A stretch of 64,000 nt of DNA from Hypanus sabinus (GCF_030144855.1 NC_082715.1:135098001-135162000); one strand, 5' to 3'; positions 1,441 through 60,009 are shown, counted from the stretch's first letter. Translations and numbers: made by a program. Notes: generated by a model not told the origin, from the sequence alone.

Positions 1441-1442
1441 CC

Positions 1443-2934: not shown

Positions 2935-2936
2935 AA

Positions 2937-8446: not shown

Positions 8447-8448
8447 AT

Positions 8449-14845: not shown

Positions 14846-15479
14846 CCTACCAAAGGGAAAAAACGACTGGAATCGCTTTGAATTTTTGTGTGTCATAAAT
14901 CAAGCTTACAAAAATTAGTTTAAAGAAAACTGCCAATATTTACAAAAAGATATCTGCCATGACACAATAAATCACTGCATACTATTTGTCCAGTGTGAAC
15001 TCATCGTAGCTCGATCTCTGAGAGCGAAGAACCCTGTCAACTATGCACAAACTTAAATTAAGACTACACATAATTTAGTCCAGATGCATGTCATAATGTA
15101 GTTACAATCATATTACAAATTAAAGAGAAGTATCTACGTTACATACAGCACACAAACAATATATACGCACTTGCACATCCGGTCACTAAAGAAAAAGAAT
15201 ATTCCTGTGTGTGTGGCGGGGAAGTACAATAAAACCAATACCTCATGAGAAGGGCAACAGAACTACAACAATACTTGTGTGTGTGTGCGCGCGCGCAAAG
15301 TGCGTTTACCAAGTGTTCTCCGTCTCTATCAGATTGTTTTCCTGAGAAGGTAGGACGATCACATATAATATTATTAAGTGTGTAAATAAGGCAGATGGTC
15401 AGTTTTTTTTCTCTCAGGGTAGGGGATGCCTGTTGATATTTCAGTGAGTTGCTCCAGCATTTTGTGTTTTTCGCTCCCA

Positions 15480-15915
15480 ACAGCGCAGCCATTCACAATT
15501 CGCCGTCTCCGACCCAGCGATCAACTGCGCAGGCGTCGGGGGAGGAGCGAGGGAAAAAAATCCCCGAAATTGCGCATGCGCTCAACGGACAAATGACTCT
15601 GGCGAATTGGACGTAGGTCGAATCAAGGCTGCAGTTTGGGGATCCATCAGTACTGGCGTCGGTACCGCGGCTAACGGAAAACTTCTGTGAGTTCCGGTAA
15701 CATGGTGACCCCGCTAGTTCGGGACAATCTCGGTCCTTTCCCTCTGTCAGCCCCACCTCCCTATTAGGACTCCACTGCAATTTCTGCGGATCAGTAATGG
15801 CGGCGGCGGCGGCGCCATTTCTACTGCGCATGCGCATTACTGGAAGCGTGCCGGATAGATGGGTGTCTTATTCGTGGCGATTTCTGGGTAAAGAGGCAGT
15901 CATGGCTGAAATTTT
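15480..15915 (+). promoter_or_regulatory. CpG promoter + non-coding exon 1 of ZNF-1 (copy B)
   Basis: NRF1 sites at 15571-15581 and 15825-15836. ATGGCG(GCG)nCCAT gives opposed YY1-like sites at 15797-15820. Donor CTGG|GTAAAG at 15888. CpG-rich relative to the flanks. Confidence 0.72.
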
Positions 15916-16059
15916 ACTGCTTTCCTCACCAGTCCGTAGATTGTGTTTGGAAGCACAAGTGGATGGAATATGAGTGGATGGGTCTCCCAAACACGCCGAC
16001 CTCCAGATACCAAATTCCAAGGTTTAGGTACTCGGAACAAAAATATCGTTCATTTTTTA

Positions 16060-17630
16060 TAATAGAATATAGAAGTGTTCTGCTCAGGAACAGGCCATTC
16101 TGCCCACATTATCGTGCCAAACCAGCTGGAAAGCAAATCAAAGTTACCTAAATCCCTCCTACATACACCATGTCTAAATCCCTCCGTCCTCCTTGTTGTT
16201 TCGATGTGTGCATCCAAACTTCTCTTAAAAGCCTCTAATGTATTTGTGTCTACTACCATACTGGGCAGTACATTCCAGGCATCCATGACTGTGAGTAAAA
16301 AAAACTTACCCCTACCACACCCACTCCACCTTAACCTGTCCACTCTCACTGTCAATGCATGCCCTCTGCTATTTGACATTTCAACCCTGGGAAACACATA
16401 CCCTCTGTCCAGTCTATCTCTGCCTCTCATAATCTTATAAACATGTATCAAATCTCCCCTCCAGCGCTCCAGAGAAACCAACCCAAGTTTATTCAGCCTC
16501 TTGTGATAGCACATGCTTTCTGAACCAGCCAGCGTCCTGGTGAGCTAATTCTCCACCTCCAAAGCCTCAACATTCTCCTAAGTTTGGGTGACCAGAATTG
16601 TACTCCAGATGTGGCCAAACTAAAGTTTTATAAAGTTGCAACATAAAAGCAAGCATACCATAAACCCTCTTAACCACTTTGTCAACCTGTGAAGCCACTT
16701 TCAAGAACCTATGAACTTGGATTCCAAGATCTCTCTGCTCAGCAACACAATTAAGGGTCCTGCCCTGAACAGTGTATTGTATCCTTATATTTGCCTATCG
16801 AGCTGCAATCCCTGACATTTATCTGGGTGAATCTCTCCATCTGCCATTTCTCAGCCCATATCTGCGACTGATCTACATTGTACTCTGTTCTTTGCCAGTC
16901 TTTTCCACTATCCACAACTCCATTAATCATGCTGTCATCTGCAAATTTTCCAATCCACTCATCTATCTTTTCATCCAGGTCATTCATATACATTACGAAC
17001 AGCAGAGATCCCAGCACTGATCCCTGTGAAACACCACTAATTACAGACCTCCAGCTGGAATAAGTCACTTCAACAATTACCCTCTGTCTTCTATGTGCAA
17101 ACCTGTTCTGAATCTAAACAGCCAACTTGTATAAATCCCATGCATTTTAATCTTCAGGATTAGCCTCCCATAAGGGACTTTGTCAAAGACCATACTGAAA
17201 TTCATGTAGACAACATCCACTGCCCCACTACACTCATTAATCTCTCTCATCACCTTGTCAAAAAACTCATTCAAGCTGGTAAGCCATGGCTTGCCCTGCA
17301 CAAAGCCATTCTGACTCTCCCTAATTAGGCCATGGGTTTCCAAATGCTTATATATTTTATCCTTCAGAAATTTCTACAGCTATTTCCCTACGACTGACGT
17401 GAGACTCACTGGTCTATACTTCCCAGGATTTTCCCTTGTTCCCTTTTTAAGTAGAGGGACAACATTAGTGACATTCCAGTCTCCAGGACCTCGTCTGTTA
17501 CAAGAGAGGACACAACACTACTGACCAAGGGCCACCTTTGGTAACCTAGGGTAAATCCCAGCAGGCCCTCAGGATTAATCCATCTCAATACCCCTTAGGA
17601 GGCCCAAAACTTCCTCTTCCTTGACCTCCG
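16060..17630 (-). mobile_element. old CR1 ORF2 remnant in ZNF-1 intron
   Basis: GVSQGSVLGSLLF, KFADD, FDKVPYGRL; paralogous to 27280-29005. Confidence 0.85.
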
Positions 17631-17849
17631 AGAACAGGTTGAAGATGGGCAGAAATGGCACATTCTGATGCAGAAAGGAAAACAGAGAATTTGATGGTCA
17701 GTCCAGATGACTGATCTCTGCCCAGTTGGAAGAGGAGGAGGAGTTCCTTCAACGTGGGTTGAATTTCACTTGTTACAGTGTGATGTCAGAGCTCTCCATA
17801 GTGACTAAAATTATCACATCAAAAATGCTGTCCATCACTCATCGATGTA

Positions 17850-18331
17850 TTTTATAAATCTTACAGGGTTAGAAATGGCGAAGAATTCGAGCACCTCAGG
17901 TTTGCTGTCTCTGCATATTTTAAAGAGTGACCAGATATTTCCTCTGTGACACCAATATATTTATTGTGATCCTTGGAGATGAAGAATTTTCTCATTCCAG
18001 CTGAGAATGTGCTTTGTGACTGAGATGAAGATTTCTGTTGTGACTCAGTGAAATCCACTGGAACGGATGTGCTGAGAACACTCGGTCTTCAACTTCTTTA
18101 ATTGTACAAGGGAGTCACTACGTCATACATCTGACTTAGTGAATTGCTAGAGAGTTGACAGTAGGGAGATATCATTCTCATTCTGTTACGTGGAAGGGAT
18201 TCACTCAGTTATCTGACCAACTGTCTCACTGTTCATTTCACCTTAGAGAAAGGCTGTTCACCTCAGAATTTGGGAAGGAATCCATTCAGTCATCTGACCT
18301 ACTGACACACTAATCAGTTCATACTGGGAAG
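17850..18331 (+). other. splice acceptor and 5' UTR of ZNF-1, containing decayed zinc fingers
   Basis: TTTATAAATCTTACAG|G (exon starts 17867) is conserved at 30310-30326. Finger remnants at 18170-18331 have lost a Cys codon. Confidence 0.65.
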
Positions 18332-19348
18332 ATGCTGTTTACTTGCTCAGACTGTGGGAAGGGATTTCCACGGTCATGTCAACTGAAGCTACATCAACGA
18401 GATCACACTGATAAGAAACAGTTCACCTGCTCAGACTGTGGGAAGGGATTTGATTCATCATCTCAGCTGCAGAGACATCGGTCAGTTCACACTGGGAAGA
18501 AACCATTCACCTGCACGGACTGTGGAAAAGGATTCACTCTCTCATCCAACTTATCTAGACATCTGAAAACTCACACTGAGGAAAATCTGTTCAGCTGCTC
18601 AGACTGTGGAAAACGATTCACTCGGTCATCTGACCTTCTCAAACACCAGCCAGTTCACACTGGGAAGTGGTCGTACACCTGCTCAAACTGTGGGAAAGGA
18701 TTCAGTGAGTTATCTGACCTTCGCAGACACCAGTCACTTCACACTGGGATGTGGCCATTTACCTGCTCAAATTGTGGGAAAGGATTCAGTCGGTTATCTG
18801 ATCTGAAAGGACATACGCGAGTTCACACTGGGGAGAGGCCATTCACCTGCTCAGACTGTGGGAAGCAATTCATTTGGTCATCTCACTTGTACAGACACCA
18901 GCGACTTCACTCTGGAGAGAGGCCATTCACCTGTTCCGTGTGTGGGAAAGGGTTTGCTCGATCATCCCACCTACAAAGACATGAGTCAACTCACAGTGTG
19001 AAGAAACCGTTCACCTGCTCAGACTGTGGAAAGGGATTTTGTCAGTCAACAGACCTACTGATACACCAGTCAGTTCACAGGGGGGAGTATTTGTTCACCT
19101 GCTCAGATTGTGGGAAAGGATTCACTCTGTTATACAACCTACAGGTACACCAGCGAACTCACACTGGGGAGAAACCGTTCATCTGCTCAGAGTGTGGGAA
19201 GCGATTTGCTCAGATATCCAACCTGCAGACACACCTGCGAGTGCACACTGGTGAGAGGCCGTTCTCCTGCTCTGAATGTGGGAAGCGATTCAGTCGGACA
19301 TCCGAACTTACGAAACACTACCGAGTTCACAGTGAGGACATAATTTAA
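18332..19348 (+). CDS. tandem C2H2 zinc-finger protein ZNF-1, 12 fingers, no effector domain
   Basis: 338 aa = 12 x CxxC-x12-HxxxH with TGEKP-like linkers; uninterrupted; AATAAA at 19561-19566. Confidence 0.93.
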
Positions 19349-19560
19349 GGATGCCTTATGCTGGATATTTAATCATCAAAGTTGCTGAATCCAGAGACAA
19401 ATTTAAAAGAGACTGTTGGTATTGAACTCACTAATTATTGCTGCTGCTTATCACACCCAGTTCTACACCCTGGCCACTGGACATGAGAGGAGTTTCTTCT
19501 GCTGATGTTCACCTTTAATCCTTTAATGGAAGTGGAAATTAATATTCTGGATCTGTGATT

Positions 19561-19566
19561 AATAAA
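19561..19566 (+). terminator. polyadenylation signal of ZNF-1
   Basis: AATAAA 212 bp after the stop; conserved in the paralog at 32627-32632. Confidence 0.6.
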
Positions 19567-19872
19567 TCAGTTGTATTATATCATTTGCCTTGGGTTCATG
19601 CTGAATTTACAACTCACCCCATGTACAGTAGGGAATCATCTTAGTCCAGTTAGACCCTTCCAGTGTTTCTGTTCCATGATAATCCTTTTAAATCCATCTT
19701 GCTGTTCACCTCTCACTCTTCCTTTGGTGATGGGTTCCAGACAGTTTCCACTGTGGGTGAAGAAGTTTCCCATGAATTTCCTGCATGACTTTCTGCAGAC
19801 TGAAGAAGAAGAAGACAAACTGACTGCAGTTATGTTTCTCTCTCAGATCTCTTGCCTGAGGAAGAATATCCT

Positions 19873-20385
19873 TGTTGGCCAGAAGGGACTACTGTCTACA
19901 AATCATTGGATTTGAATGAATGGAGGTCAGTGGAAGTAGACAAAAAGAACAACAGTCTACAAATCAGTGGATTCAGATGAATCAGGACAGAAGTAGCAGA
20001 CAATCCAAATGTCTTTGTTTTCCCCCATTTTGTGAACTCTGATCTGATACTTGCTTGGGGATAATCTAATCAGAGCAATTGAATGAGGAGTTTCAAGTGC
20101 TGACTTGCTGAACCTGTATTTGTTCTCAGAGGAGTAGCTATTTATTATGCAAAGTTCCAGACCTACCAAAGAAGCAATCTGTAATCACGTGTCTGAGTCA
20201 CCTTGTTTAACTGGTTTGGACTAGTCAGAGTTGAAAGGCACAAATACAGAAAGATGGGAGGGGCAGAAACCATGGAACAACATTGGTTGTAGTGCTGGAC
20301 TAGAACAAGTAAGAAGGTGACTTTGAGCCAATAGAATGGAAATCCACTAATTCAACTGATGAGGGAAACTAAGAGTCTGGAGCTT
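19873..20385 (+). mobile_element. partial ERV LTR (paralog of 32936-33490)
   Basis: Starts TGTTGGCCAGAAGG after the same flank (GAAGAATATCCT) as the 5' LTR at 32936; truncated by L1 sequence. Confidence 0.85.
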
Positions 20386-20389
20386 CAAG

Positions 20390-21935
20390 ATTCAAATAAA
20401 CCAAGGTCTATTTTAGTTTGCTTTCATCACTTTAAAATGAAAGATCAAATTATGAGAGGGCAAGGAAAGTGAGAATTTTCAGATTCAAGATGAGGATTAC
20501 CCGAAGGAGGTAATGGAACAAAGATCAAAATTTGCTTTGGGAATGAAACAGGCATATGATTTTTTAAAAAACTGTACCTGTTCTTGCGTTACCCAACCTG
20601 AATTAAAGTTTTTCCCCCAATTCTTCTGCTCGTACATTTTTTGATCATGAAGATGCACTATACCCACTGTAATTGACGATTGAACTGTGTGGAAGACTGC
20701 TTGGTTATCTGACATCTCATTGGTATTTCGGAAAGAAGATTTATGAAGATCACTTGGACATTTCATTGAGAGACTATTAAAAAGAAGATAAAGGTTCTTG
20801 TTCATTATTGCATATCATTGGTATTTCGGAAAGAAGATACATGGTTCAAATATGTTCAAATGGTTATTCGGACATTTGTCCGAGGAAAATAAGATAAAGG
20901 GACTTGTTCCTTTGACCTATTAATTGGTTTGATGTTTTTTTTTGTTTGTTTCTTAATGAATTGGTAGTTTTTCTTATTAATGGATTTTTATATATATATA
21001 CACACACACACACATATAGCTGGGGAGGGTTCAATTACTTACATAATATTACTAGTTGGTATTTTTGAAAATTTATTTGGGTTAAATATGCTATTAATCT
21101 TTTTTTCCTACTCTTTTTTTGAAGAACTGTGCTGATTTGTTATTAAAAACTATGCTTAGGTTTTTCTAGGTGACATGTTTTAGATCTTAAAAATTGCTTT
21201 TTTTTTCTTTTTTGGTTTAATTTCAATATATCAGTATGTTTTTAGATAATAGAATGTCATACCATCATATAACAGAATTTAAAGCTTTTTTAGGGATTTA
21301 ATGTTAAATTTAAGATGGTGTTGGATTTTCTTTTTCAGCCATAACATAGTTATCTTTAATTTATTGTTTTGGTCCTGTCGGGTTCTTTCTTCATTTAAGA
21401 AAGGCTAAATATGAACATGGGATAGTTTATAGATGTTGGAAATGTAAACATTTTCCTTCATTGAGATTTTGCTTTTCCTCTTACAAGGTCAGTGAGTTTT
21501 GTTTCTTTTAACTAGAGGGAGCGATTTAAAAATCTTTCTGAATTTTCTGTTTTTTTTTCACAGTACATCACTTTGTATCTATTTATGGGGTGCCTGCTAT
21601 CCTTCAGGCTGTGGGGGGAGGGAGTGGGGTTAGAGTTCGGGGGCTTTTCCCATTGGGTGGTTCCGGAGCATGCGTGTTTTCTATATGGTGGTTTCTTCAT
21701 CACTGCCATTTTTGATTATCCCATATTGGTATGTGCTCTGCGCTTGTGTAAAGTAGAATAAAACTCTGTTATGGTATTTAAACGGATTAATGTAATATGC
21801 TGGAATGTGTCTGGTTGGAATCATCCTATCAAACTAAAAAAGACTTTTAAAATCATCAATTGATTCCAATCTGATACAATTTTTGCCCAGGAGACACAAA
21901 TCAGGGCAGGAGATCGAAAGAGATTTTTTAGATGG
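20390..21935 (+). mobile_element. L1-clade fragment (ORF1 end, spacer, ORF2 endonuclease start)
   Basis: DYPKEVMEQRSKF at ~20495; INVICWNVSGWNHPIK...FAQETQ at 21785-21900. Confidence 0.7.
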
Positions 21936-21936
21936 T

Positions 21937-22687
21937 AACCACAAGGAAATCTACAGATGCTGTAAATTCAAATAACACACACAAAATGCTGGTGGAACAC
22001 AGCAGGTCAAGCAGCATCTATAAGGAGAAGCACTGTCGACGGTTCGGGCCGAGACCCTTCGTCAGGACTAGCTGAAGGGAAAGATACTATGAAATTTTAA
22101 ATTTAATAGGGGGAGGGGGAAATGCGAAATGATAGGAAAAGACTGGAGGGGGTGGGATGAAGCTAAGAGCTGTAAAGGTGATTGGTGAAAGTGGTACAGA
22201 GCTGGAGAAGGGAAAGGATCATGGGACGGGAGGACTTGTGAGTAAGAAAGAGGGAGGGGGAAGCACCAGAGGGAGATGGAGAACAGGCAAAGAACTAAAT
22301 AGGTCGGTGATGGGGTAAGAAGGGGAGGAGGGGCATTAACGTAAGTTAGAGAAGTCAATGTTCATGCCATCAGGTTGGAGGCTACCCAGCCGGTATATAA
22401 TGTGTTGTTCCTCCAACCTGAGTTTGGATTCATTTTGACAGTAGAGGAGGCCATGGATAGACATAGCAGAATGTGAATGGGACATGGAATTAAAATGTGT
22501 GGCCACTAGGGGATCCTGCTTTCTCTGGCGGACCGAGCGCAGGTGTACATCCCTTCCCACCGATCTCCCTCCTGGCACTTAAACTTGTAAGCGGAACAAG
22601 TGCTACACCTGCCCTTACACTTCCTCCCTCACCACCATTCAGGACCCCAGACAGTCCTTCCAGGTGAGGCAACATTTCACCTGTGAG
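21937..22687 (-). mobile_element. Penelope 3' fragment with pseudo-LTR and an inverted 5' piece (22548-22687 on +)
   Basis: GIY-YIG C-terminus VATHFNS...RLEEQHIIYRLGSLQPDGMNIDF; the plus-strand piece is the reverse complement of ~50-190. Confidence 0.88.
22035..22069 (-). ncRNA. minimal type-I hammerhead ribozyme motif of the Penelope pLTR (core mutated)
   Basis: Minus strand reads AGTC-CTGACGA-AGGG-TCTCGG-CCC-GAAC-CGTC-GAC; canonical GAAA is GAAC here. Confidence 0.75.
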
Positions 22688-22779
22688 TTTTTTTCTCTCA
22701 GGGTAGGGGATGCCTGTTGATATTTGAGGCCGAGGCCTGAGTTTCTCCAGCATTTTGTGATAGTTGCTCCCAACAGGGC

Positions 22780-23190
22780 ACAATTCGCCCGCAATGACCC
22801 GCGATCAACTGCGCAGGCGTAAGAAGTGCCCAAAAAAATTATTCCCGCAATTGCGCATGCGCAGAACACAACGGACAAACTGGTGAATCGGCAGCAGGAA
22901 GAAGCGGGGCTGCGGCTTCGGGATTCATCAGTACTGGAGTCGGCACTGCGGCTAACGGAAAACTGCTGTGAGTTCCGGTAATATGGTGGCCCCACAAATT
23001 CGGAACAGTCTCGGTGCTTTCCCTCTCTGTCAGCCCCACCTCTCTATTCGGACGCCACTGCGATTTCGCTTATATACAATGGCATCGGCGCCATTTCTGC
23101 TACGCATGCGCATTACTGGAAGCGTGATGGATAGATGGGTATCCTATTCGTGGGGATTTCTGGGTAAAGAGGCCGTCATGGCTGTGATTT
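22780..23190 (+). promoter_or_regulatory. CpG promoter + non-coding exon 1 of ZNF-2 (copy C)
   Basis: Perfect NRF1 site at 22852-22863; proximal site mutated to TACGCATGCGCA (23101-23112); CGCCATTT YY1-like motif; donor CTGG|GTAAAG at 23164. Confidence 0.7.
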
Positions 23191-23289
23191 TACCGCTTTC
23201 CTCACCAGTCCGTAGGGTGTGTTTGGAAGCGTAGGCGGAAGGAATATGATAGGATGGGTCTCCCAAACACTGCCGAACTCAAGCTACCG

Positions 23290-26200
23290 GGAGCTGGATG
23301 AACTACGGATCATTCGGGAGGCAGAGGCAGAGATAGATAGGAGTTATCAGGAGGTAGTCACACCAAAAATCCAAGAAGTAGACAGATGGGAGAGGCAGAG
23401 AGAGCAGAGCACCCCTGCGGCCATTCCCATTAACAATAAGTATACCGTACTGGATACTGTTGATGAGGATGACCTACCAGGAATGAGTTGTAGTGGTCCT
23501 GCCTCTGGCACAGAGGTTGAACCCTCAACTAGAAAGGGGAGGAGTGAAGAGAAGAGAGCGATAGTTTTAGGGGATTCTATAGTCAAGGGGGCAGATAGGA
23601 GATTTTGTGGGGCAGATCGGGAGTCTCGGATGGAATGATGCCTCCCTGGTACCTGGGTCCGGGACATCTCAGATCGGGTGCAGCCTATTCTTGAGAACGA
23701 GGGCATGAACCCAGATGTAGTGGTCCATGTAGAGACCAACGATGTAGGTAAGGTGAGTGAGGGGGTCCTGCTTAGAGAGTTCAGGGAGTTAGGAGTGAAG
23801 CTGAAAGGCAGGACCTCCAGGGTTACAATCTCGGGATTGCTACCTGTGCCACGTGCGAGTGAGGCGAAGAATAGAATGATTATGCACATTAATACGAGGC
23901 TGAGAGCATGGTGCAGGAAGGAAGGGTTCAGGTTTTTGGATAATTGGTCTTTGTTCCAGGGACATTGGGATCTGTTTCGAAGGGATGGTCTACATCTGAA
24001 CCGGAGGGGTACTAACATTCTTGCAGGAGTATTTGCCAGTGCTGCTCGGGGGGGGGGGGGGGGTTTAAACTAGATGTGCAGGGGGCAGGGATCCAGATCC
24101 AGAGGGTTGGTCAGAAGGTGCATGGGGTTAAATGTGTACAAGGTTTGGGTGATCTTGAGAAGGTCATCAAAATTCAGGGTGCAATTTGCCCGATGGAAGT
24201 TCAAGGAGCTGGGTTAGGTACAGTAGACAGTGTTTTAAGCAAAGAGAGGAGGAATGGGCTAAGAATTCTATACTTGAATGCGTGTAGTGTCAGAAATAAG
24301 ACAGATGAGCTTGAAGCTCAGATGAAAATGGGGAGCTACGATATTGTTGGGATAACGGAGACATGGCTGCAAGGGGATCAGGCCTGGGAATTGAGTGTAC
24401 CAGGGTATACGTGCTATCGTAGAGACAGAAATATGGGAAGAGGGGGTGGGGTGGCCCTGTTGGTGAGGAATGAGATTCAGTCCTTAGCAAGAGGTGACTT
24501 GGGAACAGGGGAAGTAGAGTCTGTGTGGATTGAGCTGAGGAACAGTAAGGGTAAAAAGACCCTAATGGGTGTTGTGTACAGGCCCCCAAACAGTAGTGTG
24601 GATATTGGGTACAAGTTGATTAGGCACATTGGCATGTGCTAAAGGTAATGCAGTCGTTTTGGGAGATTTCAACATGGAGGTGAACTGGGAGAATCAGGTA
24701 GGTGCTGGGCCCCAGGATAGGGAGTTTGTGGAGTGTCTAAGGGATGTATTTTTGGAACAGCTTGTGCTTGAGCCAACCAGGAACGAGGCTATTTTGGACT
24801 TGGTGATGTGTAATGAACAGGAATTGACAAGTGATCTTGAAGTAAAGGAGCCATTAGGAAGTAGTGATCATAACATGATAAGTTTTTATCTACAATTTGA
24901 GAGGGATAAGGGCAGATCAGAGGTGTCAGTGTTGCAATTAAATAAAGGAGACTATGGAGCCATGAGGGAAGAGCTGGCAAAAGTTAAATGGGCGGATGCC
25001 CTGGCAGGAAAATCAGTGGATCAGCAGTGGCAGATGTTCTTGGGGATAATACAAAAGATGCAAAAGCAGTTCATTCCAATGAGAAGGAAGGATTCAAAGA
25101 GGGGGAAGGGGCCACAGTGGTTGACAAAGGAAGTCAGAGATTGTATAGCATTAAAGAAAAAGAAGTATGACAAGGCTAAGATGAGTGGGAATACAGATGA
25201 TTGGGAAAGTTTTAAGGAACAGCAGATCTTAACTAAAAAAGCAATACGGAGAGAAAAAAATCAGGTATGAGCTCAGTCTAGCCAGGAATATAAAAGGGGA
25301 TAGCAAAAGCTTTTTTAGCTATGTGAAGAGAAAGAAGATAGTTAAGAACAATGTTGGCCCCTTGAAGAATGAATTGGGAGAAATTGTTTATGGGAAACAG
25401 GGAAATGGCAACAGAATTTAATGCGTACTTTAGATCTGTCTTCACCAGGAAGGACACAAGCAATCTCCCAGATGTATGGATGGGCCAGGGTCATAAGATA
25501 TCAGAGGAATTGAGACAGATTGACATTAGGAAAGAAACTGTGACGAGTAGACTGGTAGGACTGAAGGCTAATAAATCCCCAGGTCCAGATGGTCTGCATC
25601 TGAGGGTTCTAAAAGAGATGGCTCAGGAAATTGCGGATGCATTGGTAATCATTTTCCAATGTTCCTTAGATTCAGGATCAGTTCCTGAAGATTGGAGATT
25701 GGCTAATGTTATCCCACTTTTCAAGAAGGGAGGGAAGGAGAAAACAGAGAACTATCCTAGCCTAACGTCAGTCGTGGGGAAGATGCTTGAGTCCATTATT
25801 AAGGACAAAATAGTGGCATATCTTGATGGCAGTAATAGGATTAGGCCGAGCCAGCATGGATTTACCAAGGGCAAATCATGCTTGACTAATCTGTTGCAGT
25901 TTTTTGAGGGTGTAACAGGGATGTTAGACGAGGGTAAGCCAGTGGATGTTGTGTACCTAGATTTTCAGAAGGCATTCGATAAGGTGCCACATAGGAGATT
26001 GGTGAGTAAAATCAGAGCTCATGGCATTGGGGGCAGGGTTTCAACATGGGTAGAAAACTGGTTGGCAGATAGAAAGCAAAGGGCAGCAGTGAATGGATGT
26101 TTCTCGGACTGGCTGGAGGTGACTAGTGGGGTACCCCAGGGCTCTGTATTGGGACCACAGCTCTTTACGATTTATGTCAATGATTTAGATGAGGGCATTG

Positions 26201-27151
26201 AAAACTATATCAGCAAGTTTGCTGACGATACTAAACTGGGTGGCAGTGTGACATGCGAAGAGGGCGTTAGGAGAATACAGGGAGACTTGGATAGGCTGGG
26301 TGAGTGGGCAAATACTTGGCAGATGTCATTCAAAGTGAATAAATGTGAAGTTATCCACTTTGGAAGCTGGAACAAGAGGGCAGAGTATTATCTGAACGGT
26401 GTAGAGTTAGGTAAGGGAGAGATGCAAAGAGACCGAGGAGTCATAGTTCATCAGTCAATGAAGGTGAATGAGCAAGTGCAACAGGCAGTGAAGAGGGCAA
26501 ATGGAATGTTGGCCTTTATTACAAGGGGAATTGAGTTCAAGAGCAAGGATGTCCTTTTGCATTTGTATGGGGCCCTGGTGAGACCACACCTAGAATATTG
26601 TGTACAGTTTTGGTCTCCAGGTTTGAGGAAGGACATTCTGGCAATTGAGGAAGTGCAGCGTAGATTCACTAGGTTGATTCCTGGGATGGCAGGGCTGTCT
26701 TACGCAGAGAGATTGGAGAGATTGGGCTTGTACACACTGGAATTGAGGAGATTGAGAGGGGATCTGATTGAAACGTTTAAGATAATTAAAGGATTTGATA
26801 GGATTGAGGCAGGAAATATGTTCCAGATGTTGGGAGAGTCCAGTACCAGAGGGCATGGATTGAGAATAAGAGGTCAGTTATTTAAAACAGAGTTGAGGAA
26901 GAACTTCTTCTCCCAGGGAGTTGTGGAGGTGTGGAATGCACTGCCTCGGAAGATGGTGGAGGCCAATTCTCTGGATGCTTTCAAGAAGGAGCTAGATAGA
27001 TATCTGATGGATAGATAGGGGAATCAAGGGATATGGGGACAAGGCAGGGACTGGGTATTGATAGTGAATGATCAGCCATGATCTCAGAATGGCGGTGCAG
27101 ACTCGAGGGGCCAAATGGTCTCCTTCTGCTCCTATTGTCTTTTGTCTTTTT
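23290..27151 (+). mobile_element. 5'-truncated young CR1 LINE, copy 2, in ZNF-2 intron 1
   Basis: Nearly identical to 7642-11524, with ORF2 frameshifted. Flanks CTACCG / GAATTC rejoin to match the empty paralogous site GATACCAAATTCC at ~16006-16018. Confidence 0.95.
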
Positions 27152-27279
27152 GAATTCTAGGGATTAGGGACTGGGAACAAAAATTGGAGATTTAATCTCC
27201 AATGAGGAATCATCTTCCAGTCTCTGAAAATGCCAGTAAGGGCTGTATGGAGAAATAGAACAAAATCCTCCCATCAGCT

Positions 27280-29200
27280 TTAGAACATAGAAGTGTACTG
27301 CAGAGGAACAGGCCATTCTACTCACATTATCCTGCCAAACCGGCTAGAAAGCAAATCAAAGTCACCTAAATCCCTCTACATACACCATGTCCATATCCCT
27401 CCCTCCATCATTCTATCTATGTGTGCATCCAAACTTCTCTTAAAAGCCCCTGTTGTATTTGTCTCTATCACCGTACTTGGCAGTGCATTCCAGGCATCCA
27501 TGACTCTGAGTAAAAAATTTATTCCTCCCAACCCCCATTAACCTACCCCCTCTCACCTTCAATGCACGCCCTCTGGAAGTTGACATTTGACATTTCAACC
27601 CTGGGAAACACATAGCCCCTGTCCAGTCTATCTATGCCTCTCATAATCTTATAAAGATGTATCGAATCTCCCCTGAGCCTCCAACACTCCAGAGAAACCA
27701 ACCCAAGTTTATCAATCCTCTTGTGATAGTACATGCTTTCTGAACCAGGCAGCATTGTGGTGAACTACTTCTGCACCCTCTCCAAAGCCTCAACATTAAA
27801 TTGAATTGAATTTTGGTTTATTGTCATTTAGATACCACAACTGCAATGCAGCGTGCCTTAAAAAATGAAACAACGTTCCTCTAGAATGATATCACAAAAG
27901 CACACGACAACCAGACTACACCAGAAAATCCATGTAACATTTGGCAATCCCAAATCTAGAGTCTGGAAATGCTGCCTAAAGTTGGGTAACCAGAATTGTA
28001 CTCCAGATATGGCCAAACCAAAGTTTTATAAAGTTGCAACATAATGTACTGACTCTAGAACTCTGTGCCTCAACTAATAAAAGCAAGCATTCCATAAGCC
28101 TTCTTAACCACCTTGCCAACCTGTGAAGACACTTTCAAGAAGCTATGAACTTGGATCCCAAGATCTCTCTGCTCAGCAACACCATTGAGGGTCTTGCCCT
28201 TAATAGTGTACTGTATCCTTATATTTGCCTATCAATGCCTCACATTTATCTGGGTGAAACTCCATCTGCCATTTCTCAGCCCATATCTGCAACTGATCAA
28301 CATTGTACTCTGTTCTTTGCCAGTCTTCTTCACTATACACAACTTCATTAATCTTAGTGTCATCTGCAAATTTACTAACCCACTCATCAATATTTTCCAC
28401 CAGGTCAACAGCAGAAATCCCAGCACCGATCCCTGTGGAACACCACTAATTACAGACCTCCAGCTTGAATAAGTCACTTCAACTATTACCCTCTGCCTTC
28501 CATGTGCAAACCTGTTGTGAATCTAAACAGCCAACTTGCTGCAGATCCCATGCATTTTAATCTTCTGGGTTAGCCTCCCATGAGGGACTTTGTCAAAGGC
28601 CTTACTGAAATCCATGTAGACAACATCCACTGCCCTACTACACTCATTAATCTCTTTCATCACCTTGTCAAAAACCTCAAATCAAGCTGGCTCTCCCTAA
28701 TTAGGCCATGGGTTTCCAAATGCTTATATATCTTATCCTTAAGAATTTTCTATAGCAATTTCCCTACAACTGACGTGAGACTCATTGGTCTGCGTTTGCC
28801 AGGATTCTCCCTTGTTCCCTTCTTAAGTAGAGGTACATCATCAGCCAATCTCCAGTCTCCAGGTCTCGCCTGTTGCTAGAGAGGACACAAAAATGCTGGT
28901 TAAGGGCACCTTTAGTAACTTGGGGCAAATCCCATCAGGCCCTGCGGATTAATCCACCTTAATAGCCATTAGGAGTCCCAAAACTTCCTCTTCTTTGATC
29001 TCTGAAACTCCAAACATATTTATACACATGACATTGATCTTCTGGTCCTTCCTATCCTTTTCCTTAGGAAATGCAGGAAGTACTCATTAAGTACCACACT
29101 CACATTTTCTGCTTCCAGGCAGATATTCCCCCCTTTATCCTTACAGACACACCCTCTCCCAGGTTATCTTTTTACTCTTCATGTGTGTAGAGAATGAAAA
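27280..29200 (-). mobile_element. old CR1 remnant in ZNF-2 intron, with a ~177-bp short insertion at 27798-27974
   Basis: Paralog of 16060-17630; the insertion is absent at ~16575. Confidence 0.8.
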
Positions 29201-30811
29201 AGGACCTATTATGTCCTGGTGTGTATGATGACTATGTTCTTGTTCTTAACCGACGTTTTGATGACAACCCCCCCTCCCCTGTTGTCCATTCTTCCTGATT
29301 GGTTAGTCCTTTCCAATCAGCTTTCTGCTGTCCCACTTTATTTACAATTGAATTTCAGTTCTTACTTAAGAGTGAGACCCTCATCTTTGTTAAAATTCTT
29401 CTTTTCTAGTTTGATTTCAATAGCTGGCTTAGCTAGGCAGTCCCAAAAGCGATTGGCGTGACGCAGTAGTTTTGTGCCCTCAAAGTTAATCCTATGGCCG
29501 TTGCCATCTTCGTCCACTTTTCCTGTACTCTGTGCAATTGATCTTTAAACACCCTCCACATGTCTGATGTGGACTTGCCAGAATAATGGTGTTCCCAATC
29601 AAATCTTAGTTCCTGCCCAATGCCCTCATAGTTTGTCCTACTGCAATTTAAAACTCCGACAAGGACCATACCTATCCTTATCTATAGCTATCCTGAAATA
29701 TAAGGAGCTGTCGCCTCTGTTCCCGAACCGTTCATCCACTGAAAGGTCAGTCACCTGGCCAGGCTCATTATCCAACACTAGGTCCTGTTATGACCCTCCT
29801 CTTGTTGATTTAGCTTTAGTTCTTGAGAATATCTTTTTTGCTCTGCCTTCTCTTAGTCTGGACCTTTTTACTTCTGAGAACGTGTTTTACCCCACTCTCT
29901 CTGGGTATTTCAAAAATTTCAATATTCATTGGCATTGCTGAGTTCACCACTATCAATTACTTGAGGGGGAGGGGTTCAGAATAACTAGAAAGTGTCCAGA
30001 TCAGCCATGTAATATCATGTATTCTTTGTAGTCCTGTGGGACTTGACCAGAACTTGAAATAATACTAATGCAGGCAGACTGAGCCAAGTCACAGGTTGAA
30101 GTTGGGCAGATATGGCCCATTCTGATACGGACAGAAAAACAGTCAGAGAATTTGATGGTCAGTCCAGATGACTGATCTCCGCCCAGTTAGAAGAGGAGGA
30201 GTGTTCCTTCAATGTGGGTTGAATTTCGCAGTTACAGTGTGATGTCAGAGGTCACCGTAAGGACTAAAATTATCACATCTAAAATGCTGTCCTTCACCAA
30301 CTGATGTCTTTTATAAATCTTACAGGGTTAGAAATGGTGAAGTTGTGAACGGGAATCTCAAACTCGAGCACCTCAGGTTTGCTGCGTCTGTGCAGATTTT
30401 AAGGAGTGACCAGATATTTCCTCTGTACCACCAATATATTTATTGCGATCGTTGGAGATGAAGAACTATTACATTCCAGCTGGGAATGTGCTTTGTGACT
30501 GAGATGAAGATTTTTGTTGTGACTCAGTGAAATCCACTAGAACTGACGTGCTGAGAACACTAGGTCTTCAACTGCATTGATTGTACAAGGGAGTCACTAC
30601 GTCAATCATCTGACTTAATGAATTGCTAGAGAATTGACAGTAGGGAGATATCATTCTCGTTCTGTCACGTGGAAGGGATTCACTCAGTTATCTGACCAAC
30701 TGTTCTCACTGTTCAGTTCACCTTGGAGAGAGGCTGTTCACCTCAGAATGTGGGAAGGAATCCATTAAGTCATCTGACCTACTGACACACCAATCAGTTC
30801 ACACTGGGAAA

Positions 30812-32158
30812 ATGCCGTTTACTTGCTCAGACTGTGGAAAGGGATTCTCTTTCTCATCCAACTTACAAAGACATCAGCGAGTTCACACTGGGGAGAGGCC
30901 ATTCACCTGCTCAGACTGTGGGAAGCGATTCACTAGACAATCTCACCTGCAGTCACATCAGTCAGTTCACACCGGGGAGAAACCATTCACCTGTTCAGAA
31001 TGTGGGAAGGGATTCACTCAGTCAAATGAGCTTCTCAGACACCAGTCAGTTCACACTGGGGAGTGGTTGTTCACTTGCTCAGATTGCGGGAAAGGATTCA
31101 ATTCGTTATCTGCTCTTCACAGACACCAGTCAGTTCACGCTGGGAAGGGGTTGTTCACCTGCTCAGATTGTGGGAAAGGATTCAATTCGTTATCTGCCCT
31201 TCACAGACACCAGTCAGTTCACACTGGGAAGGGATTGTTCACTTGCTCAGATTGTGGGAAAGGATTCTCTCGGTTATCTGAACTGAAAATACATCAGCGA
31301 GTTCACACTGGGGAGAGGCCATTCAACTGCTCAGACTGTGGGAAGCGATTCGCTAGGTCATCTCTCCTGTACAGACATCAGCGAATTCACACTGGGGAGA
31401 GGCCATTCACCTGCTCCGTGTGTGGGAAAGGGTTTGCTCGCTCATCCCACCTAAAGAGACATGAATCAACTCACAGTGTGAAGAAACCATTCACCTGCTC
31501 AGACTGTGGAAAGGGATTTTCCCAATCATCAGACCTACTGACACACCAGTCAGTTCACACGGGAGAGTGGTTGTTCACCTGCTCAGATTGTGGGAAAGGA
31601 TTCATCTCGTCATCTCAACTGAAAACACATCAGCGAGTTCACACTGGGGAGAAGCCGTTCACCTGCTCAGACTGTGGGAAGGGATTCGCTCAGTTATCCA
31701 CCCTACAGGCACACCGGCGACTTCACTCTGGGGAGAAACCATTCACCTGCTCAGACTGTGGTAAGCAATTCACTCAGATAACCAGGCTGCAGACACACCT
31801 GCGAGTTCACACTGGTGAGAGGCCGTTCTCCTGCTCTGAATGTGGAAAAGGATTCAGTCGGTTTTCTGAACTGAAAATACATCAGCGAGTTCACACTGGG
31901 GAGAGGCCATTCACCTGCTCAGACTGTGGGAAGCGATTCACTAGTTCATCTCTCCTGTACAGACACCAGCGAGTTCACACTGGGGAGAGACCATTCACCT
32001 GCTCCGTGTGTGGGAAAGGGTTTGCTCGAACATCCCACCTACAGAGACATGAGTCAACTCACAGTGTGAAGAAACCATTCACCTGCTCAGACTGTGGAAA
32101 GGGATTTTCCGAATCATCAGACCTACTGACACACCAGTCAGTTCACACGGGAGAGTAG
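30812..32158 (+). CDS. tandem C2H2 zinc-finger protein ZNF-2, 16 fingers, no effector domain
   Basis: 448 aa with 16 intact fingers; acceptor at 30325; ends at TAG 32156-32158 where sister linkers have TGG (TGEW). Confidence 0.92.
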   Translation: MPFTCSDCGKGFSFSSNLQRHQRVHTGERPFTCSDCGKRFTRQSHLQSHQSVHTGEKPFTCSECGKGFTQSNELLRHQSVHTGEWLFTCSDCGKGFNSLSALHRHQSVHAGKGLFTCSDCGKGFNSLSALHRHQSVHTGKGLFTCSDCGKGFSRLSELKIHQRVHTGERPFNCSDCGKRFARSSLLYRHQRIHTGERPFTCSVCGKGFARSSHLKRHESTHSVKKPFTCSDCGKGFSQSSDLLTHQSVHTGEWLFTCSDCGKGFISSSQLKTHQRVHTGEKPFTCSDCGKGFAQLSTLQAHRRLHSGEKPFTCSDCGKQFTQITRLQTHLRVHTGERPFSCSECGKGFSRFSELKIHQRVHTGERPFTCSDCGKRFTSSSLLYRHQRVHTGERPFTCSVCGKGFARTSHLQRHESTHSVKKPFTCSDCGKGFSESSDLLTHQSVHTGE

Positions 32159-32437
32159 TTGTTCACCTGCTCAGACTGTGGGAAGGGATTCGCTGAGTTA
32201 TCCACCTTCCAGGCACACCAGCGACTTCACTCTGGGGAGAAACCATTCACCTGCTCAGACTGTGGTAAGCAATTCACTGAGATAACCAGGCTGCAGACAC
32301 ACCTGCAAGTTCACACTGGTGAAAGGCTGTTCTGCTCTGAATGTGGGAAGCTATTCAGTCGGACATCCGAACTTACGAAACACTACCGAGTTCACAGAGA
32401 GGACACAATTTTAATATGCCTCATGCTGGATATTTAA
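32159..32437 (+). pseudogene. three further in-frame fingers (17-19) cut off by the TAG
   Basis: Same frame. The last finger [12 protein letters not shown] equals the last finger of ZNF-1. Shows L>F at the conserved Leu and a one-codon deletion. Confidence 0.85.
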
Positions 32438-33790
32438 CCATCAAATTTGCTGAAGTCAGAGACGAATTCAAAAGAGACTGTTGGTGTTGAACTCCAGTAA
32501 TTTTTGCTGCTGCTTATCACATCCAGTTCTACATCCTGGCCTCTGGAACTGAGAGGAGTTTCTTCTGCTGATGTTCACCTTTAATCCTTTAATGGGAGTG
32601 GAAATTAATTTTCTGGATACATTATTAATAAATCATTTGTATTTTAAACTTTGCCTCAGGTACTTGCTGGATTTACAACTCACCCCATGTACAGTAGACA
32701 GGCAGCTCAGTCCAGCTAGACCCTTCCAGTGTTTCTGTTCCATGATAATCCTTTTAAATCCATCCTGCTGTTCACCTCTCACTCGCTCTTTGGTGATGGG
32801 TTCCAGACAGTCTCCACCATGGCTGAAGAAGTTTCCCATGAATTTCCTGCATGACTATCTGCAGACCGAAGAAGAAGACAAACTGACTGCAGTTATGTTT
32901 CTGTCTCAGATCTCTTGCCTGAGGAAGAATATCCTTGTTGGCCAGAAGGGACTACAGTCTACAAATTATTGGATTTGAATGAATCAAGGACAGTGGAAGT
33001 AGACAAAAAGAACAACCGTCTACAAATCAGTGGATTCAGATGACTCAGGACAGAAGTAGCAGACAATCCAAATGTCTCTGTTTTCCATCATTTTGTGAAC
33101 TCTGAACTGATACTTGCTCGGGGATAATCTAATCAGAGCAATTGAATGTGGACATAAGGAGGTTCAAGTGATGACCTAGTGAATCTGAGATCATTCTCAG
33201 ACAAGTAGCTATTTATTAAGTAAAGTTCTAGTCCTACTAAAGAAGCAATCTGTAATCATGTTAAATTGAGTGTTTGGGTCAACTCGTTTAACTGGTTTGG
33301 ACCAGTCAGAGTTGAAAGGCACAAACACACAAAGATGGGAGGGGCATTAACCATGGAACAACATTGGTTGTAGCCCTAGACTAGAGCCAGTAAGAAGGTG
33401 ACCAAAGTAGGTCAGGTGACTTTGAGCCAATGGGATGGAAATCCATTCATTCAACTGATGAAGGAAACTATAAGAATCTGGAGCTCCAAATGCAAAATGG
33501 TGATAACTCTCCAGCAACCAGAGACCAACTATCATGGATGACAAGGGCGCCACAGACATGTGAGATTGGGACCACAAGGAACACCTGTCCAGCATAGACT
33601 CCTTTACTGGGTAATACCTTTTCTCTTAATTGACTGTTCATGGAGGGTCAGGGAATTCTAGTGGATATGCATACAGTTAGCTAGATTATGAACCACGTGT
33701 TCTTTAGTTGAGACAATAAAGGCTACTTCTTGGTAAATACAGATTCTCTCTGACTCTCTCTTCGGTATTATAAGATCTGTATAATAAAAT

Positions 33791-33811
33791 TGGCATCCCT
33801 GATGGTGGCTC
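33791..33811 (+). promoter_or_regulatory. ERV primer-binding site, tRNA-Asn-like
   Basis: TGGCATCCCTGATGGTGGCTC, 4 nt after the LTR, versus the tRNA-Asn complement TGGCGTCCCTGGGTGGGCTC. Confidence 0.6.
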
Positions 33812-33973
33812 AAGGATAAATCTTTCTCTTCATTTGTCGGGTCATGAAGGTAGGTAGTTAGAAGTTACTAACCCACATGAAAACCTCAAGGAAAATCTGC
33901 AAGCTCAAAGGTCTTGGGTTGTTTTGATTGGAAGGGATTCCTCTAGAAATTTGTGTTGAGGAAGTGGCCACAA

Positions 33974-36621: not shown

Positions 36622-37499
36622 AAGTGGTCACAATATGAAGGGTTTGTCAGTCACCCTGGCTGCGAAGGGAAACCTACAGGGTATACCCTTTGGAAAATCG
36701 CCCAAGAGAAGCTGCCGGAATTGTTTAAACAATTACTAAAACTAGTTACAGTTGGTTATTTAATTGAGGATTTGCTACAATTACCACAGAGTGCTAAGGC
36801 AGAATGACACAGATTAGTAATAGAAAACAAATGTCAGCATAAAGCAAGTGAGATAGGTTACAACTAGAAATATTAGAAAATCGGCATAAAGCAGAAGCTG
36901 ACTAAGGTAGGTTAAATGGAGAATACAAAAGGAGGTAGAAAGCTTGAGAGAAAGGGTTACTGATTTACAGGGTCGAAGGAGTATGGGCTTGATGCTTGTG
37001 AACCAGTTTCAGAGAAAGCAGCCAAGATAGCAAAAAGTGAAGTGGAAGGATTAAGGAAACAGTGCAGTGATTTAAAGATGGCAATGCATATGATTCAGGA
37101 ATCAGCACAGGAAAGGAAGAATAACACTGGCGATCATGCAAAGTGTTTAAAGCAGATGCAAAAGCTGCAGGACCAACTTGCTGCACAGCGAGGAATAATA
37201 TGTGCTTTTGGATATGAAAGAGGGGAGGAAGGTGAATTTGGAGATATTGATTGGTATGATTTTGCAGATGAAGCTACTAGGTGACGGTTTTGATAATTAG
37301 GGATTTTTAAATTATGCTGAGGAACTATGACTGAAACCCTGGCAATGGCAACACTTTACATCAGTGAGATTGGGAGGGAGAAGGAACAACAGATTATGGA
37401 TTTAACCAAGGAGCAGAAGAAAAATAAAGATTTCAAAAAATGAATAGAAGGAGCAGGGTCTGAAATATACAAAGACAACAAGGGAGTGTTTGTTAAAGA

Positions 37500-38489: not shown

Positions 38490-38822
38490 CACAGAACAAT
38501 TGATGTAGCCCTGATTTGGGAGTCTTGAGGATGAAACAACTTTTCCAAGTAAATGGGGACAGATCCCAGCAAGGGGTAATTTTCAGTTTCCTCATCCTGA
38601 GAACTGGGGATTTTTGTCAAAAAAAAAGGAAAAGGAAAATGTGCTAGTGCTTATCTCTCCTATCCTGAAATCACGTTGGGTGCCTTCAGTCCAAAGACAA
38701 TTGCGAGTCCAGATTGGATGGTCTAGAAAAACAAATCGAAAATATAGACTTAAAATAACTTAAGATTTAAACTTGAAATAAGAACAGTAATTACTGTTGT
38801 GTAATACAGATTTAATTCAACA

Positions 38823-50638: not shown

Positions 50639-50646
50639 TAAAGGTA

Positions 50647-59910: not shown

Positions 59911-60009
59911 TTCACTGATCTGTATCATAATGAGATAATCTTCCCCATCACCTGTCTGTGATTTGGTTTAGTGTATCTGAATATAACAGTTCTGCTCATA
60001 TCCCACTGC

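What the first reader, a model, noticed from the sequence alone, without database searches (positions are those of the whole stretch)
15480..33790. Duplicating cassette: NRF1/YY1 promoter + effector-less tandem ZNF gene + ERV LTR (candidate KRAB-independent anti-TE ZNF system)
Seen: two direct copies (~15400-20385 and ~22687-33490) of promoter, non-coding exon 1, intron and a single coding exon made only of C2H2 fingers. Each is followed ~300 bp after AATAAA by the same ERV LTR at the same junction. A third promoter points out of the window and a dead ZNF lies at 55.5-56.7 kb. Non-coding parts align well, whereas finger number (12 vs 19) and helix residues differ. Known: tetrapod KRAB-ZNF and cyprinid FiNZ-ZNF clusters evolve this way against TEs but carry an N-terminal repressor domain. 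Inference: a birth-and-death ZNF array without a visible effector, possibly acting by steric blocking or a partner in trans, and co-amplifying with retroviral DNA.
Basis: partly seen in the sequence, partly recalled or inferred. Interest (0 to 1): 0.8.

Follow-up and report, generated by a model that had tools for sequence, protein, structure and literature searches.

The report
Duplicated finger-only zinc-finger genes in ray
Two duplicated, fast-changing DNA-binding zinc-finger genes from a ray-like fish lack the silencing domain their mammalian counterparts carry, and the dead retrovirus beside them was copied along as an older passenger rather than being part of the system.

Summary
The structure is real, but two details need correcting. 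The DNA is cartilaginous-fish, probably stingray-like. Two segmental-duplicate genes each have an NRF1-motif promoter, a short exon 1 and one C2H2 exon.

Copy 1 encodes 12 intact fingers. Copy 2 has a stop after finger 16 of 19. Stops in all three frames after the main acceptor exclude a spliced-in effector, and no known effector domain was found upstream. Zinc-ligand and core residues are frozen (0 changes in 104 nonsynonymous sites), while DNA-contact residues change about twice as fast as synonymous sites (nominal P≈0.04). These look like selected, diversifying finger-only proteins.

The 'LTR' is the 5' LTR of one old, dead provirus running 32.9-48.1 kb. Its two LTRs differ by 20%, the gene copies by about 10%, so it integrated first and hitchhiked, as described in mouse KRAB-ZNF clusters.

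TE targeting is an analogy: a crude motif test showed no ERV match. Sharks and rays are already known to hold 315-3586 tandem-ZNF ORFs, but I found no paper describing their gene structure. Verdict: an undescribed effector-less variant of a known kind; moderate interest.

The parts
15404..15887 (+). Copy 1 CpG-rich promoter and exon 1: two NRF1-type palindromes (15572, 15826), a YY1-like site (about 15797-15820), ATG 15797 opening a 30-codon frame, donor after 15887. Transcription start not known.
15888..17866 (+). Copy 1 intron, mostly antisense LINE (CR1-like) relics shared with copy 2; no effector-domain frame
17867..18331 (+). Copy 1 exon 2, 5' non-coding part: several upstream ATGs, two decayed fingers, TAA at 18311 just before the array
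18332..19348 (+). Copy 1 ORF, 338 aa, 12 intact tandem C2H2 fingers, no other domain
19561..19566 (+). Copy 1 AATAAA
19873..20390 (+). Truncated 5' part of the ERV LTR in copy 1, cut off by L1-like sequence
22688..23163 (+). Copy 2 promoter and exon 1 (ATG 23079, 28 codons, donor after 23163). Begins abruptly after a Penelope-like piece (class named from recalled features).
23290..27147 (+). Young CR1-type LINE in copy 2's intron, 96.5% identical to the copy at 7642-11523
30326..30811 (+). Copy 2 exon 2, 5' non-coding part
30812..32158 (+). Copy 2 ORF, 448 aa, 16 fingers, ending at an in-frame TAG in the linker after finger 16
32159..32408 (+). Fingers 17-19 of copy 2, stranded behind the stop. 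Fingers 14-18 are an internal duplicate of 7-9 and 11-12 (92-99% identical).
32627..32632 (+). Copy 2 AATAAA
32936..33786 (+). 5' LTR of the provirus, followed by a primer-binding-site-like sequence at about 33791 (resemblance to tRNA-Asn is recalled, not from a call)
33787..47273 (+). Dead ERV internal region: coiled-coil frame, integrase pieces and env-like pieces, with many stops. No gag capsid, protease or RT seen. Interrupted by an L1 (about 33974-36619) and a Gypsy element (39832-46002, 4-bp target duplication).
47274..48083 (+). 3' LTR of the same provirus, preceded by a polypurine tract; 19.9% diverged from the 5' LTR; no target-site duplication recognisable
50646..54165 (+). Third, internally deleted duplicate of the provirus with part of the 3' LTR and 600 nt of host flank, which shows duplication rather than a new integration
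1449..2934 (-). Third copy of upstream region, promoter and exon 1 (ATG 1554, donor after 1470); the gene runs out of the window
55379..56663 (-). Decayed older paralogue: fingers broken by stops and frameshifts, 65-70% identical. 3'-UTR similarity at 55379-55436; intron similarity at 59850-60108.

Best explanation
This is a piece of a cartilaginous-fish tandem C2H2 gene cluster evolving by birth and death.

SHOWN FROM SEQUENCE
- An ancestral two-exon ZNF gene acquired an ERV about 310 nt downstream of its poly(A) signal. The ERV died.
- Later segmental duplications copied promoter, gene and ERV together; the ERV is a passenger.
- The copies then diverged by finger duplication, loss and substitution concentrated on DNA-contact residues, while zinc ligands and core residues were preserved.
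- The main splice form can only give a finger-only protein, starting at a Met in the linker before finger 1.

INFERRED
- The promoter is a broadly active CpG/NRF1 type.
- The protein binds a long, fast-changing DNA target. By analogy with KZNF and FZNF genes this is most likely transposable-element DNA (about 45% on its own).
- Lacking a tethered repressor, it would act by occupancy (blocking polymerase or activators), or by using some fingers or a partner protein to bring in silencing machinery in trans.
- Copy 1 is the better candidate for a working gene. Copy 2 is a recently truncated 16-finger version.
For: - Collinear duplication with identical LTR junction.
- Order of events: LTR-LTR p=0.199, against 0.08-0.15 between gene copies and 0.107-0.122 between provirus duplicates, which share host flank.
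- Ligand/core positions: 0 nonsynonymous changes in 104 sites against pooled pS 0.129 (Fisher P=2.5e-5). Contact positions: pN 0.255, dN/dS 2.2, P=0.043 in 7 finger pairs, and 1.85-2.38 in two other pairings.
- 17 of 84 contact-codon bases differ, none as a CpG transition; P=0.004 against the 0.10 non-coding rate.
- Neutral simulation: copy 1 stays open in 0.08% of 5000 runs, and never with all ligands kept.
- Stops in all frames upstream of the array; no effector Pfam match in 99 frames.
- 0 of 19 named non-PRDM9 chondrichthyan relatives list KRAB, SCAN or BTB; 5 of 19 start within 16 residues of finger 1.
- Passive ERV duplication in ZNF clusters: PMC12575710 section 12. ZNF-TE co-evolution beyond tetrapods: PMC10547256.
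Against: - No expression, splicing or binding data.
- The contact-site excess is nominal: five site classes were tested, pairs were chosen by best identity, and finger orthology is blurred by shuffling. It is absent among copy 2's internal duplicates (dN/dS 0.87).
- Linkers and non-core scaffold evolve near neutrally (0.77-0.98).
- Copy 2 carries a nonsense change, both copies have decayed upstream fingers, and 8 and 10 ATGs precede the start Met.
- A crude recalled recognition code gave no excess in ERV LTR/PBS, ERV internal, Gypsy, L1 or promoter DNA. There was only a weak CR1 excess (22 vs 12.5-14.3; 1 of 40 and 4 of 40 shuffles; 1 of 9 regions).
Confidence: 0.6

Rival explanations
1. The genes are functional diversifying DNA binders, but their targets are host regulatory or satellite sequences rather than TEs, as for Drosophila ZAD-ZNFs.
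For: The selection pattern says nothing about the target. The motif test shows no ERV match. PMC10547256 notes ZNF families that do not track TEs.
Against: Fast contact-residue change and cluster turnover fit a moving target. The ZNF-retroelement correlation holds across metazoans (PMC10547256).
Confidence: 0.2
2. They are dying remnants: copies that lost an effector or their use and are now drifting, the intact fingers being a recent leftover.
For: Stop in copy 2, decayed 5' fingers, near-neutral linkers and scaffold, many upstream ATGs and a dead paralogue. PMC2604467 lists pseudogenes with N-terminal deletions as one source of domain-less poly-ZF genes.
Against: 0 of 104 core changes and an intact 1014-nt ORF after about 10% divergence; neutral survival below 0.1%. 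Both copies keep the same unusual linker Met, while copy 1 tolerates a stop just upstream of it.
Confidence: 0.15
3. There is a hidden short effector. The 28-30-codon exon-1 frame is spliced through a weak downstream acceptor (exon start 18318 or 30798) in frame onto the fingers, giving a FiNZ-sized N-terminal peptide.
For: The frame is open and phase 1 in all three promoters. A phase-matching AG with an open frame exists at the same place in both copies. pS exceeds pN in two of three pairwise comparisons (0.23-0.24 vs 0.07; P about 0.05). FiNZ is 28 aa on its own exon (PMC10547256).
Against: The third pair shows no bias (0.09 vs 0.10). That AG recurs in many fingers and has a T-poor tract. 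The NRF1 motif inside the frame explains part of the conservation. There were 0 hits among 1.84 billion proteins and 0 Pfam matches. The peptide is basic and hydrophobic, not acidic like KRAB or FiNZ.
Confidence: 0.07
4. One reading: ZNF gene and LTR are a coupled unit, with the LTR serving as enhancer, terminator, autoregulatory target or recombination handle that drives amplification.
For: Same junction in both copies, and three pieces of the provirus in 64 kb. A Heptranchias gene model fuses an env-like stretch related to this ERV (E=1.3e-7) to a ZNF array. ERV-promoted recombination is proposed in mouse (PMC12575710).
Against: The LTR diverges at the neutral rate between copies (0.101), is truncated in copy 1 and is older than the duplication. 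The dead paralogue has no such LTR. The block edges seen lie at L1- and Penelope-like sequence. No predicted binding to the LTR.
Confidence: 0.07

Closest known systems
Tetrapod KRAB-ZNF (KZFP) clusters
   Same: Clustered tandem C2H2 arrays on one large exon behind an intron; segmental duplication; contact-residue diversification; ERVs enriched and duplicated with the genes (PMC5363842, PMC12575710).
   Different: No KRAB exon; the frames between acceptor and array are closed; the host lineage is reported to lack KRAB families (PMC8455134). TRIM28 recruitment is therefore not expected.
Cyprinid FiNZ-ZNF genes (PMC10547256)
   Same: Two-exon layout, non-tetrapod, lineage-specific expansion, dN/dS above 1 at base-contacting residues.
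   Different: No acidic 28-aa FiNZ domain joined to the array in the main splice form; TE repression has been shown for FZNFs, not here.
Domain-less poly-ZF genes (PMC2604467) and chondrichthyan tandem-ZNF ORFs counted in PMC10547256 Supplemental Data 1
   Same: Finger-only predicted proteins; 315-3586 ORFs with at least 5 fingers in the 10 shark, ray and chimaera rows seen; the closest scaffold among hits is Hemitrygon akajei (0.67).
   Different: Those sources leave open whether the missing domain is real or an annotation gap and do not discuss cartilaginous fishes in the passages seen. Here the exon structure itself excludes a spliced-in domain at the main acceptor.
PRDM9
   Same: Fast-changing C2H2 array; two Rhinoraja PRDM9-like proteins were among the hits.
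   Different: No PR/SET or KRAB-like exon in either unit. Fingers are 60-80% identical within an array rather than near-identical minisatellite-like repeats.
Spumaretrovirus-related ERVs / lokiretroviruses (PMC7947760), for the passenger element
   Same: LTR-PBS-...-IN-env-PPT-LTR order; weak best structural-database match to foamy-virus integrase (E=0.03); a coiled-coil frame before pol; a related env stretch resembles viral fusion glycoproteins in the Atlas at 0.88 (lead only).
   Different: RT is absent, so the defining phylogeny could not be made; no SMC or Fusion_gly Pfam match.

Membership tests
KRAB-ZNF | N-terminal KRAB domain on an upstream coding exon | tested here: not met
   0 of 99 plus-strand frames of at least 28 aa match KRAB (the CR1 insert was left out); all frames closed after the acceptor
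KRAB-ZNF | Tandem C2H2 array on a single 3' exon | tested here: met
   12 and 16(+3) fingers at 84-nt spacing
KRAB-ZNF | TRIM28-dependent silencing of TE targets | not testable with these tools
   needs binding and reporter assays
FiNZ-ZNF | Acidic 28-aa FiNZ domain in frame with the array | tested here: not met
   The exon-1 peptide stops at 57 and 35 codons in the main splice form, is not acidic and has no relatives. No FiNZ profile was available for a direct scan.
FiNZ-ZNF | Positive selection at base-contacting residues | tested here: inconclusive
   dN/dS about 2, nominal P 0.04, P 0.004 against the non-coding rate; only 7 finger pairs
Lineage-specific poly-ZF birth-and-death cluster | Clustered paralogues with at least 5 fingers, duplication, finger gain and loss, pseudogenes | tested here: met
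Lineage-specific poly-ZF birth-and-death cluster | Conserved ligands and core, variable contact residues | tested here: met
   0 of 104 vs 16 of 63 nonsynonymous sites changed
TE-targeting ZNF system | Binding sites enriched in TEs | tested here: inconclusive
   Crude recalled code, 22 motifs, 9 regions; no ERV excess, weak CR1 excess
TE-targeting ZNF system | Expression in germline or early embryo; derepression of TEs on loss | not testable with these tools
   no transcript data available
PRDM9 | PR/SET domain upstream of the array | tested here: not met
   the control P0193 did give PR/SET
Endogenous retrovirus (passenger) | Paired LTRs, PBS, PPT, integrase, env-like region | tested here: met
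   (rve E=9e-5, below the curated cut-off); target-site duplication not found
Lokiretrovirus | RT phylogeny sister to other retroviruses; env similar to PF00523; optional smc gene | tested here: inconclusive
   RT missing; no PF00523 or SMC match; Atlas lead below 0.9

The most novel reading that the evidence does not exclude
Cartilaginous fishes run a third, KRAB- and FiNZ-independent vertebrate anti-transposon ZNF system of hundreds to thousands of genes. In it, finger-only proteins (or fingers joined by alternative splicing to an unrecognised 28-30-residue exon-1 peptide) are under arms-race selection and silence TEs by occupancy or through a shared partner in trans. These two genes are members caught in mid-turnover.
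Probability: 0.3. Interest if true: 0.75.

Novelty: new variant of a known kind. Interest (0 to 1): 0.4.

Why it matters
Sharks and rays sit outside the bony vertebrates, are reported to lack KRAB families, and yet hold hundreds to thousands of tandem-ZNF ORFs whose structure and role I found described nowhere. If their fingers chase TEs without a tethered repressor, then DNA recognition alone, or a partner in trans, is enough to drive ZNF expansion, and KRAB and FiNZ are later add-ons. This locus gives a concrete gene model, a selection signature and a dated duplication history to test that. The ERV part extends to a cartilaginous fish what was shown in mice: ERVs pile up in ZNF clusters by duplication.

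Tried and rejected
- Homology of the exon-2 start to the spacer of shark ZNF proteins: it looked plausible by eye, but 0 of 24 local alignments (2 queries x 12 proteins) beat shuffles. A spacer search gave only 2 hits among 5 candidates. The Atlas gave only generic ZNF clusters below 0.9. Rejected as unshown.
- Exon-1 peptide profile: 0 hits in 1.84 billion proteins.
- Whole-protein homology search: saturated by tetrapod ZNFs (7271 hits among 8000 scored, 120 listed). No orthologue was found and the species is not identified. Searches covered 185-592 aa only, so longer fused forms in relatives were not examined.
- Crude recognition-code scan: inconclusive.
- ERV target-site duplication: not found.
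- ERV pieces against solved structures: 0 hits for one piece, weak hits for two.
- No tRNA genes and no Rfam matches.
- No fold or complex prediction was run: there was no partner to test.
- Bacterial, phage and plasmid collections were not searched as irrelevant. No eukaryotic genome or transcript collection was available, so the genome-wide count and splicing stayed unchecked.
- PMC3205565 was not held. PMC13709654 had 0 occurrences of my six terms.


Full report
ORIGIN. The window is vertebrate DNA rich in CR1-, L1-, Gypsy- and Penelope-like relics (the class names other than Gypsy RT/RNase H rest on recalled features). Among 234 stored hits from two protein searches, the finger scaffold is closest to two Hemitrygon akajei proteins (0.67), then to shark proteins (0.57-0.62), with named non-chondrichthyan hits at 0.55 or less. 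It is therefore a cartilaginous fish, probably a stingray-like batoid. No orthologue was found, so the species is unknown.

THE DUPLICATION. A self-comparison gives collinear blocks 15404-16011 / 22688-23288, 16063-17631 / 27281-29005 and 17634-20396 / 30091-33496. A third, inverted copy of the upstream region and promoter lies at 2934-1448. Ungapped divergence between copies 1 and 2 is 0.146 (promoter), 0.107-0.118 (intron), 0.077 (exon-2 5' part), 0.103 (3' UTR), 0.080 (AATAAA to LTR) and 0.101 (LTR). The NRF1-type palindrome occurs 5 times, only in the three promoters, against 0.0014 expected. The YY1 site fits only a loose pattern. Copy 2's intron is longer because of a young CR1 (96.5% identical to a copy at 7642-11523).

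GENE STRUCTURE. Donors and acceptors are canonical and conserved. After the acceptor come about 460 nt with 7-11 stops in every frame in both copies, ending in two decayed fingers. The first in-frame ATG lies in the linker before finger 1 in both copies (18332, 30812), and copy 1 has a stop seven codons before it. No upstream exon spliced to this acceptor can therefore add a domain. None of 99 plus-strand frames of at least 28 aa in the upstream, exon-1, intron and exon-2 5' regions (CR1 insert left out) matched KRAB, SCAN, BTB, SET or ZAD; six frames gave sub-threshold matches, one of them the decayed finger. Copy 1 encodes 338 aa with 12 fingers. Copy 2 encodes 448 aa with 16 fingers; a TAG at 32156 strands fingers 17-19. 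Fingers 14-18 of copy 2 repeat fingers 7-9 and 11-12 at 92-99%, which explains most of the length difference. Of 21 chondrichthyan proteins that I picked by name from the listed hits, 2 are PRDM9-like. None of the other 19 lists KRAB, SCAN or BTB, and 5 start within 16 residues of finger 1. The longer N-termini are heterogeneous and in at least two cases are TE sequence. The sample is small and made of automatic gene models.

A LOOSE END. Exon 1 carries an ATG-started frame of 28-30 codons, open and phase 1 in all three promoters. In the main splice form it ends after 57 or 35 codons, so it is an upstream ORF. A weak AG just before the array (exon start 18318 / 30798) would join it in frame in both copies. 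Synonymous bias is borderline in two of three pairs and absent in the third, and the peptide has no relatives in Pfam or in 1.84 billion proteins. I keep it as a low-probability rival.

SELECTION. In 7 best-matching finger pairs, ligand and core positions show 0 changes in 104 nonsynonymous sites, against pooled pS 0.129 (P=2.5e-5). Contact positions show 16 in 63 (dN/dS 2.2, P=0.043). Linkers and other scaffold show 0.84 and 0.96. Two other pairings give contact ratios of 2.38 and 1.85; copy 2's internal duplicates give 0.87. Fingers a1-a4 and a10 were left out of the main set for lack of a match above 83% or for ambiguity; a4 and a10 are in the collinear set. None of the 17 contact-codon differences is a CpG transition. 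Under neutral decay copy 1 would stay open in 0.08% of 5000 runs and kept all ligands in none (rates estimated from the flanks, and three quarters of indels assumed to shift frame). The fold has therefore been maintained since the duplication and specificity has probably been pushed apart. The second point rests on few sites and a nominal P.

THE ERV. The repeat after each gene starts at an identical junction about 310 nt past AATAAA. In copy 2 it is a full 5' LTR (32936-33786), followed by a PBS-like sequence, a dead internal region (integrase pieces, E=9e-5 to rve; env-like pieces; no RT seen), a polypurine tract and a 3' LTR (47274-48083). An L1 and a Gypsy element are nested inside it. Copy 1 keeps about 515 nt of the LTR. 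A third piece (50646-54165) includes 600 nt of the same host flank, so it is a duplicate, not a new integration. The two LTRs differ by 0.199, about twice the divergence of the duplicated blocks. Integration came first and the LTR has drifted at the background rate since. One caveat: no target-site duplication was found, so the two LTRs could come from two recombined proviruses. The element's class is unresolved, with weak leads to foamy-like or lokiretrovirus-like ERVs. A Heptranchias gene model places a related env stretch next to a ZNF array, a single hint that such ERVs frequent these clusters in sharks too.

MECHANISM. Shown: duplication history, finger-only coding capacity at the main acceptor, conserved fold. 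Likely: diversifying selection on contact residues. Inferred by analogy: TE targets and repression by occupancy or a partner in trans. A scan with a recalled, approximate recognition code (22 four-finger motifs, 9 regions) found no excess in the ERV and only a weak one in CR1; it has little power either way.

WHAT IS KNOWN.
- PMC10547256 (passages, Results parts 1-2 of 3, rows of Supplemental Data 1; supplementary files 3-5 not searched) shows ZNF-TE co-evolution across animals and counts 315-3586 tandem-ZNF ORFs in the 10 chondrichthyan rows I retrieved. Its main text has no occurrence of 'shark', 'chondrichth' or 'cartilaginous'.
- PMC2604467 (passages) notes many poly-ZF genes without an N-terminal domain, leaves open whether this is real, and reports positive selection in KRAB-less fish expansions.
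- PMC12575710 (abstract and section 12) shows ERVs multiplying by segmental duplication in mouse KZFP clusters. PMC5363842 (passages) reports ERV enrichment there.
- PMC8455134 (passages) reports KRAB families missing in cartilaginous fishes. PMC11603059 (passages) proposes TRIM33 as a partner of KRAB-like and FiNZ proteins. PMC7947760 (passages) defines lokiretroviruses.
- Searches returned no paper on the structure or function of shark or ray tandem-ZNF genes. I saw most results as listings only, and the library omits most subscription papers.

VERDICT. The genes work like KZNF/FZNF cluster genes in their evolution but fail membership of both families. The ERV is a passenger. Domain-less arrays and ERV hitchhiking are known in kind; a resolved effector-less gene model with this selection pattern in a cartilaginous fish appears undescribed. 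Novelty: new variant of a known kind. Interest 0.4; 0.75 if TE silencing without an effector were shown (probability about 0.3).

Noticed in passing
window 32936-48083: Old provirus with a coiled-coil frame before integrase and an env-like region resembling viral fusion glycoproteins. Possibly lokiretrovirus-like or foamy-related; the PMC7947760 passages seen list no cartilaginous fish hosts.
   Followed up: partly
protein P0138 (Heptranchias perlo), residues 138-219, vs window 46788-47042: A shark gene model fuses an env-like stretch related to this ERV to a tandem ZNF array, suggesting related ERVs also sit in shark ZNF clusters.
   Followed up: partly
window 39832-46002: Gypsy-type LTR retrotransposon nested in the ERV env region, with RT and RNase H pieces, LTRs about 85% identical and a 4-bp target duplication.
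   Followed up: partly
window 49505-54685 (+) and 59850-63993 (-): Inverted duplicate blocks sharing an L1 (96%) and sequence like the ZNF intron's 3' end, pointing to further decayed ZNF units and rearrangement.
   Followed up: partly
window 15797-15887, 23079-23163, 1554-1470 (-): Conserved 28-30-codon upstream ORF in exon 1 of all three promoters, overlapping the YY1-like and NRF1 motifs; it may regulate translation.
   Followed up: yes
window 17867-18331 vs 30326-30811 and 19581-19871 vs 32646-32934: These non-coding blocks are slightly more alike (p about 0.08) than introns and LTR (about 0.11); UTR constraint or gene conversion is possible.
   Followed up: no
window 1-1448 (-) and 21939-22688: Penelope-like pieces (class recalled; no Pfam match) abut exon 1 of the third copy and the 5' edge of copy 2; positions 49-189 and 22548-22688 are 93.6% identical.
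   Followed up: no
window 57720-58840 and 60300-61050: GC-richer repeats with short tandem units and LTR-like features upstream of the dead ZNF; not classified.
   Followed up: no
protein P0122 (Pristiophorus japonicus): A gene model joining retroelement-like, histone and ZNF sequence, suggesting shark ZNF genes lie beside histone genes.
   Followed up: no
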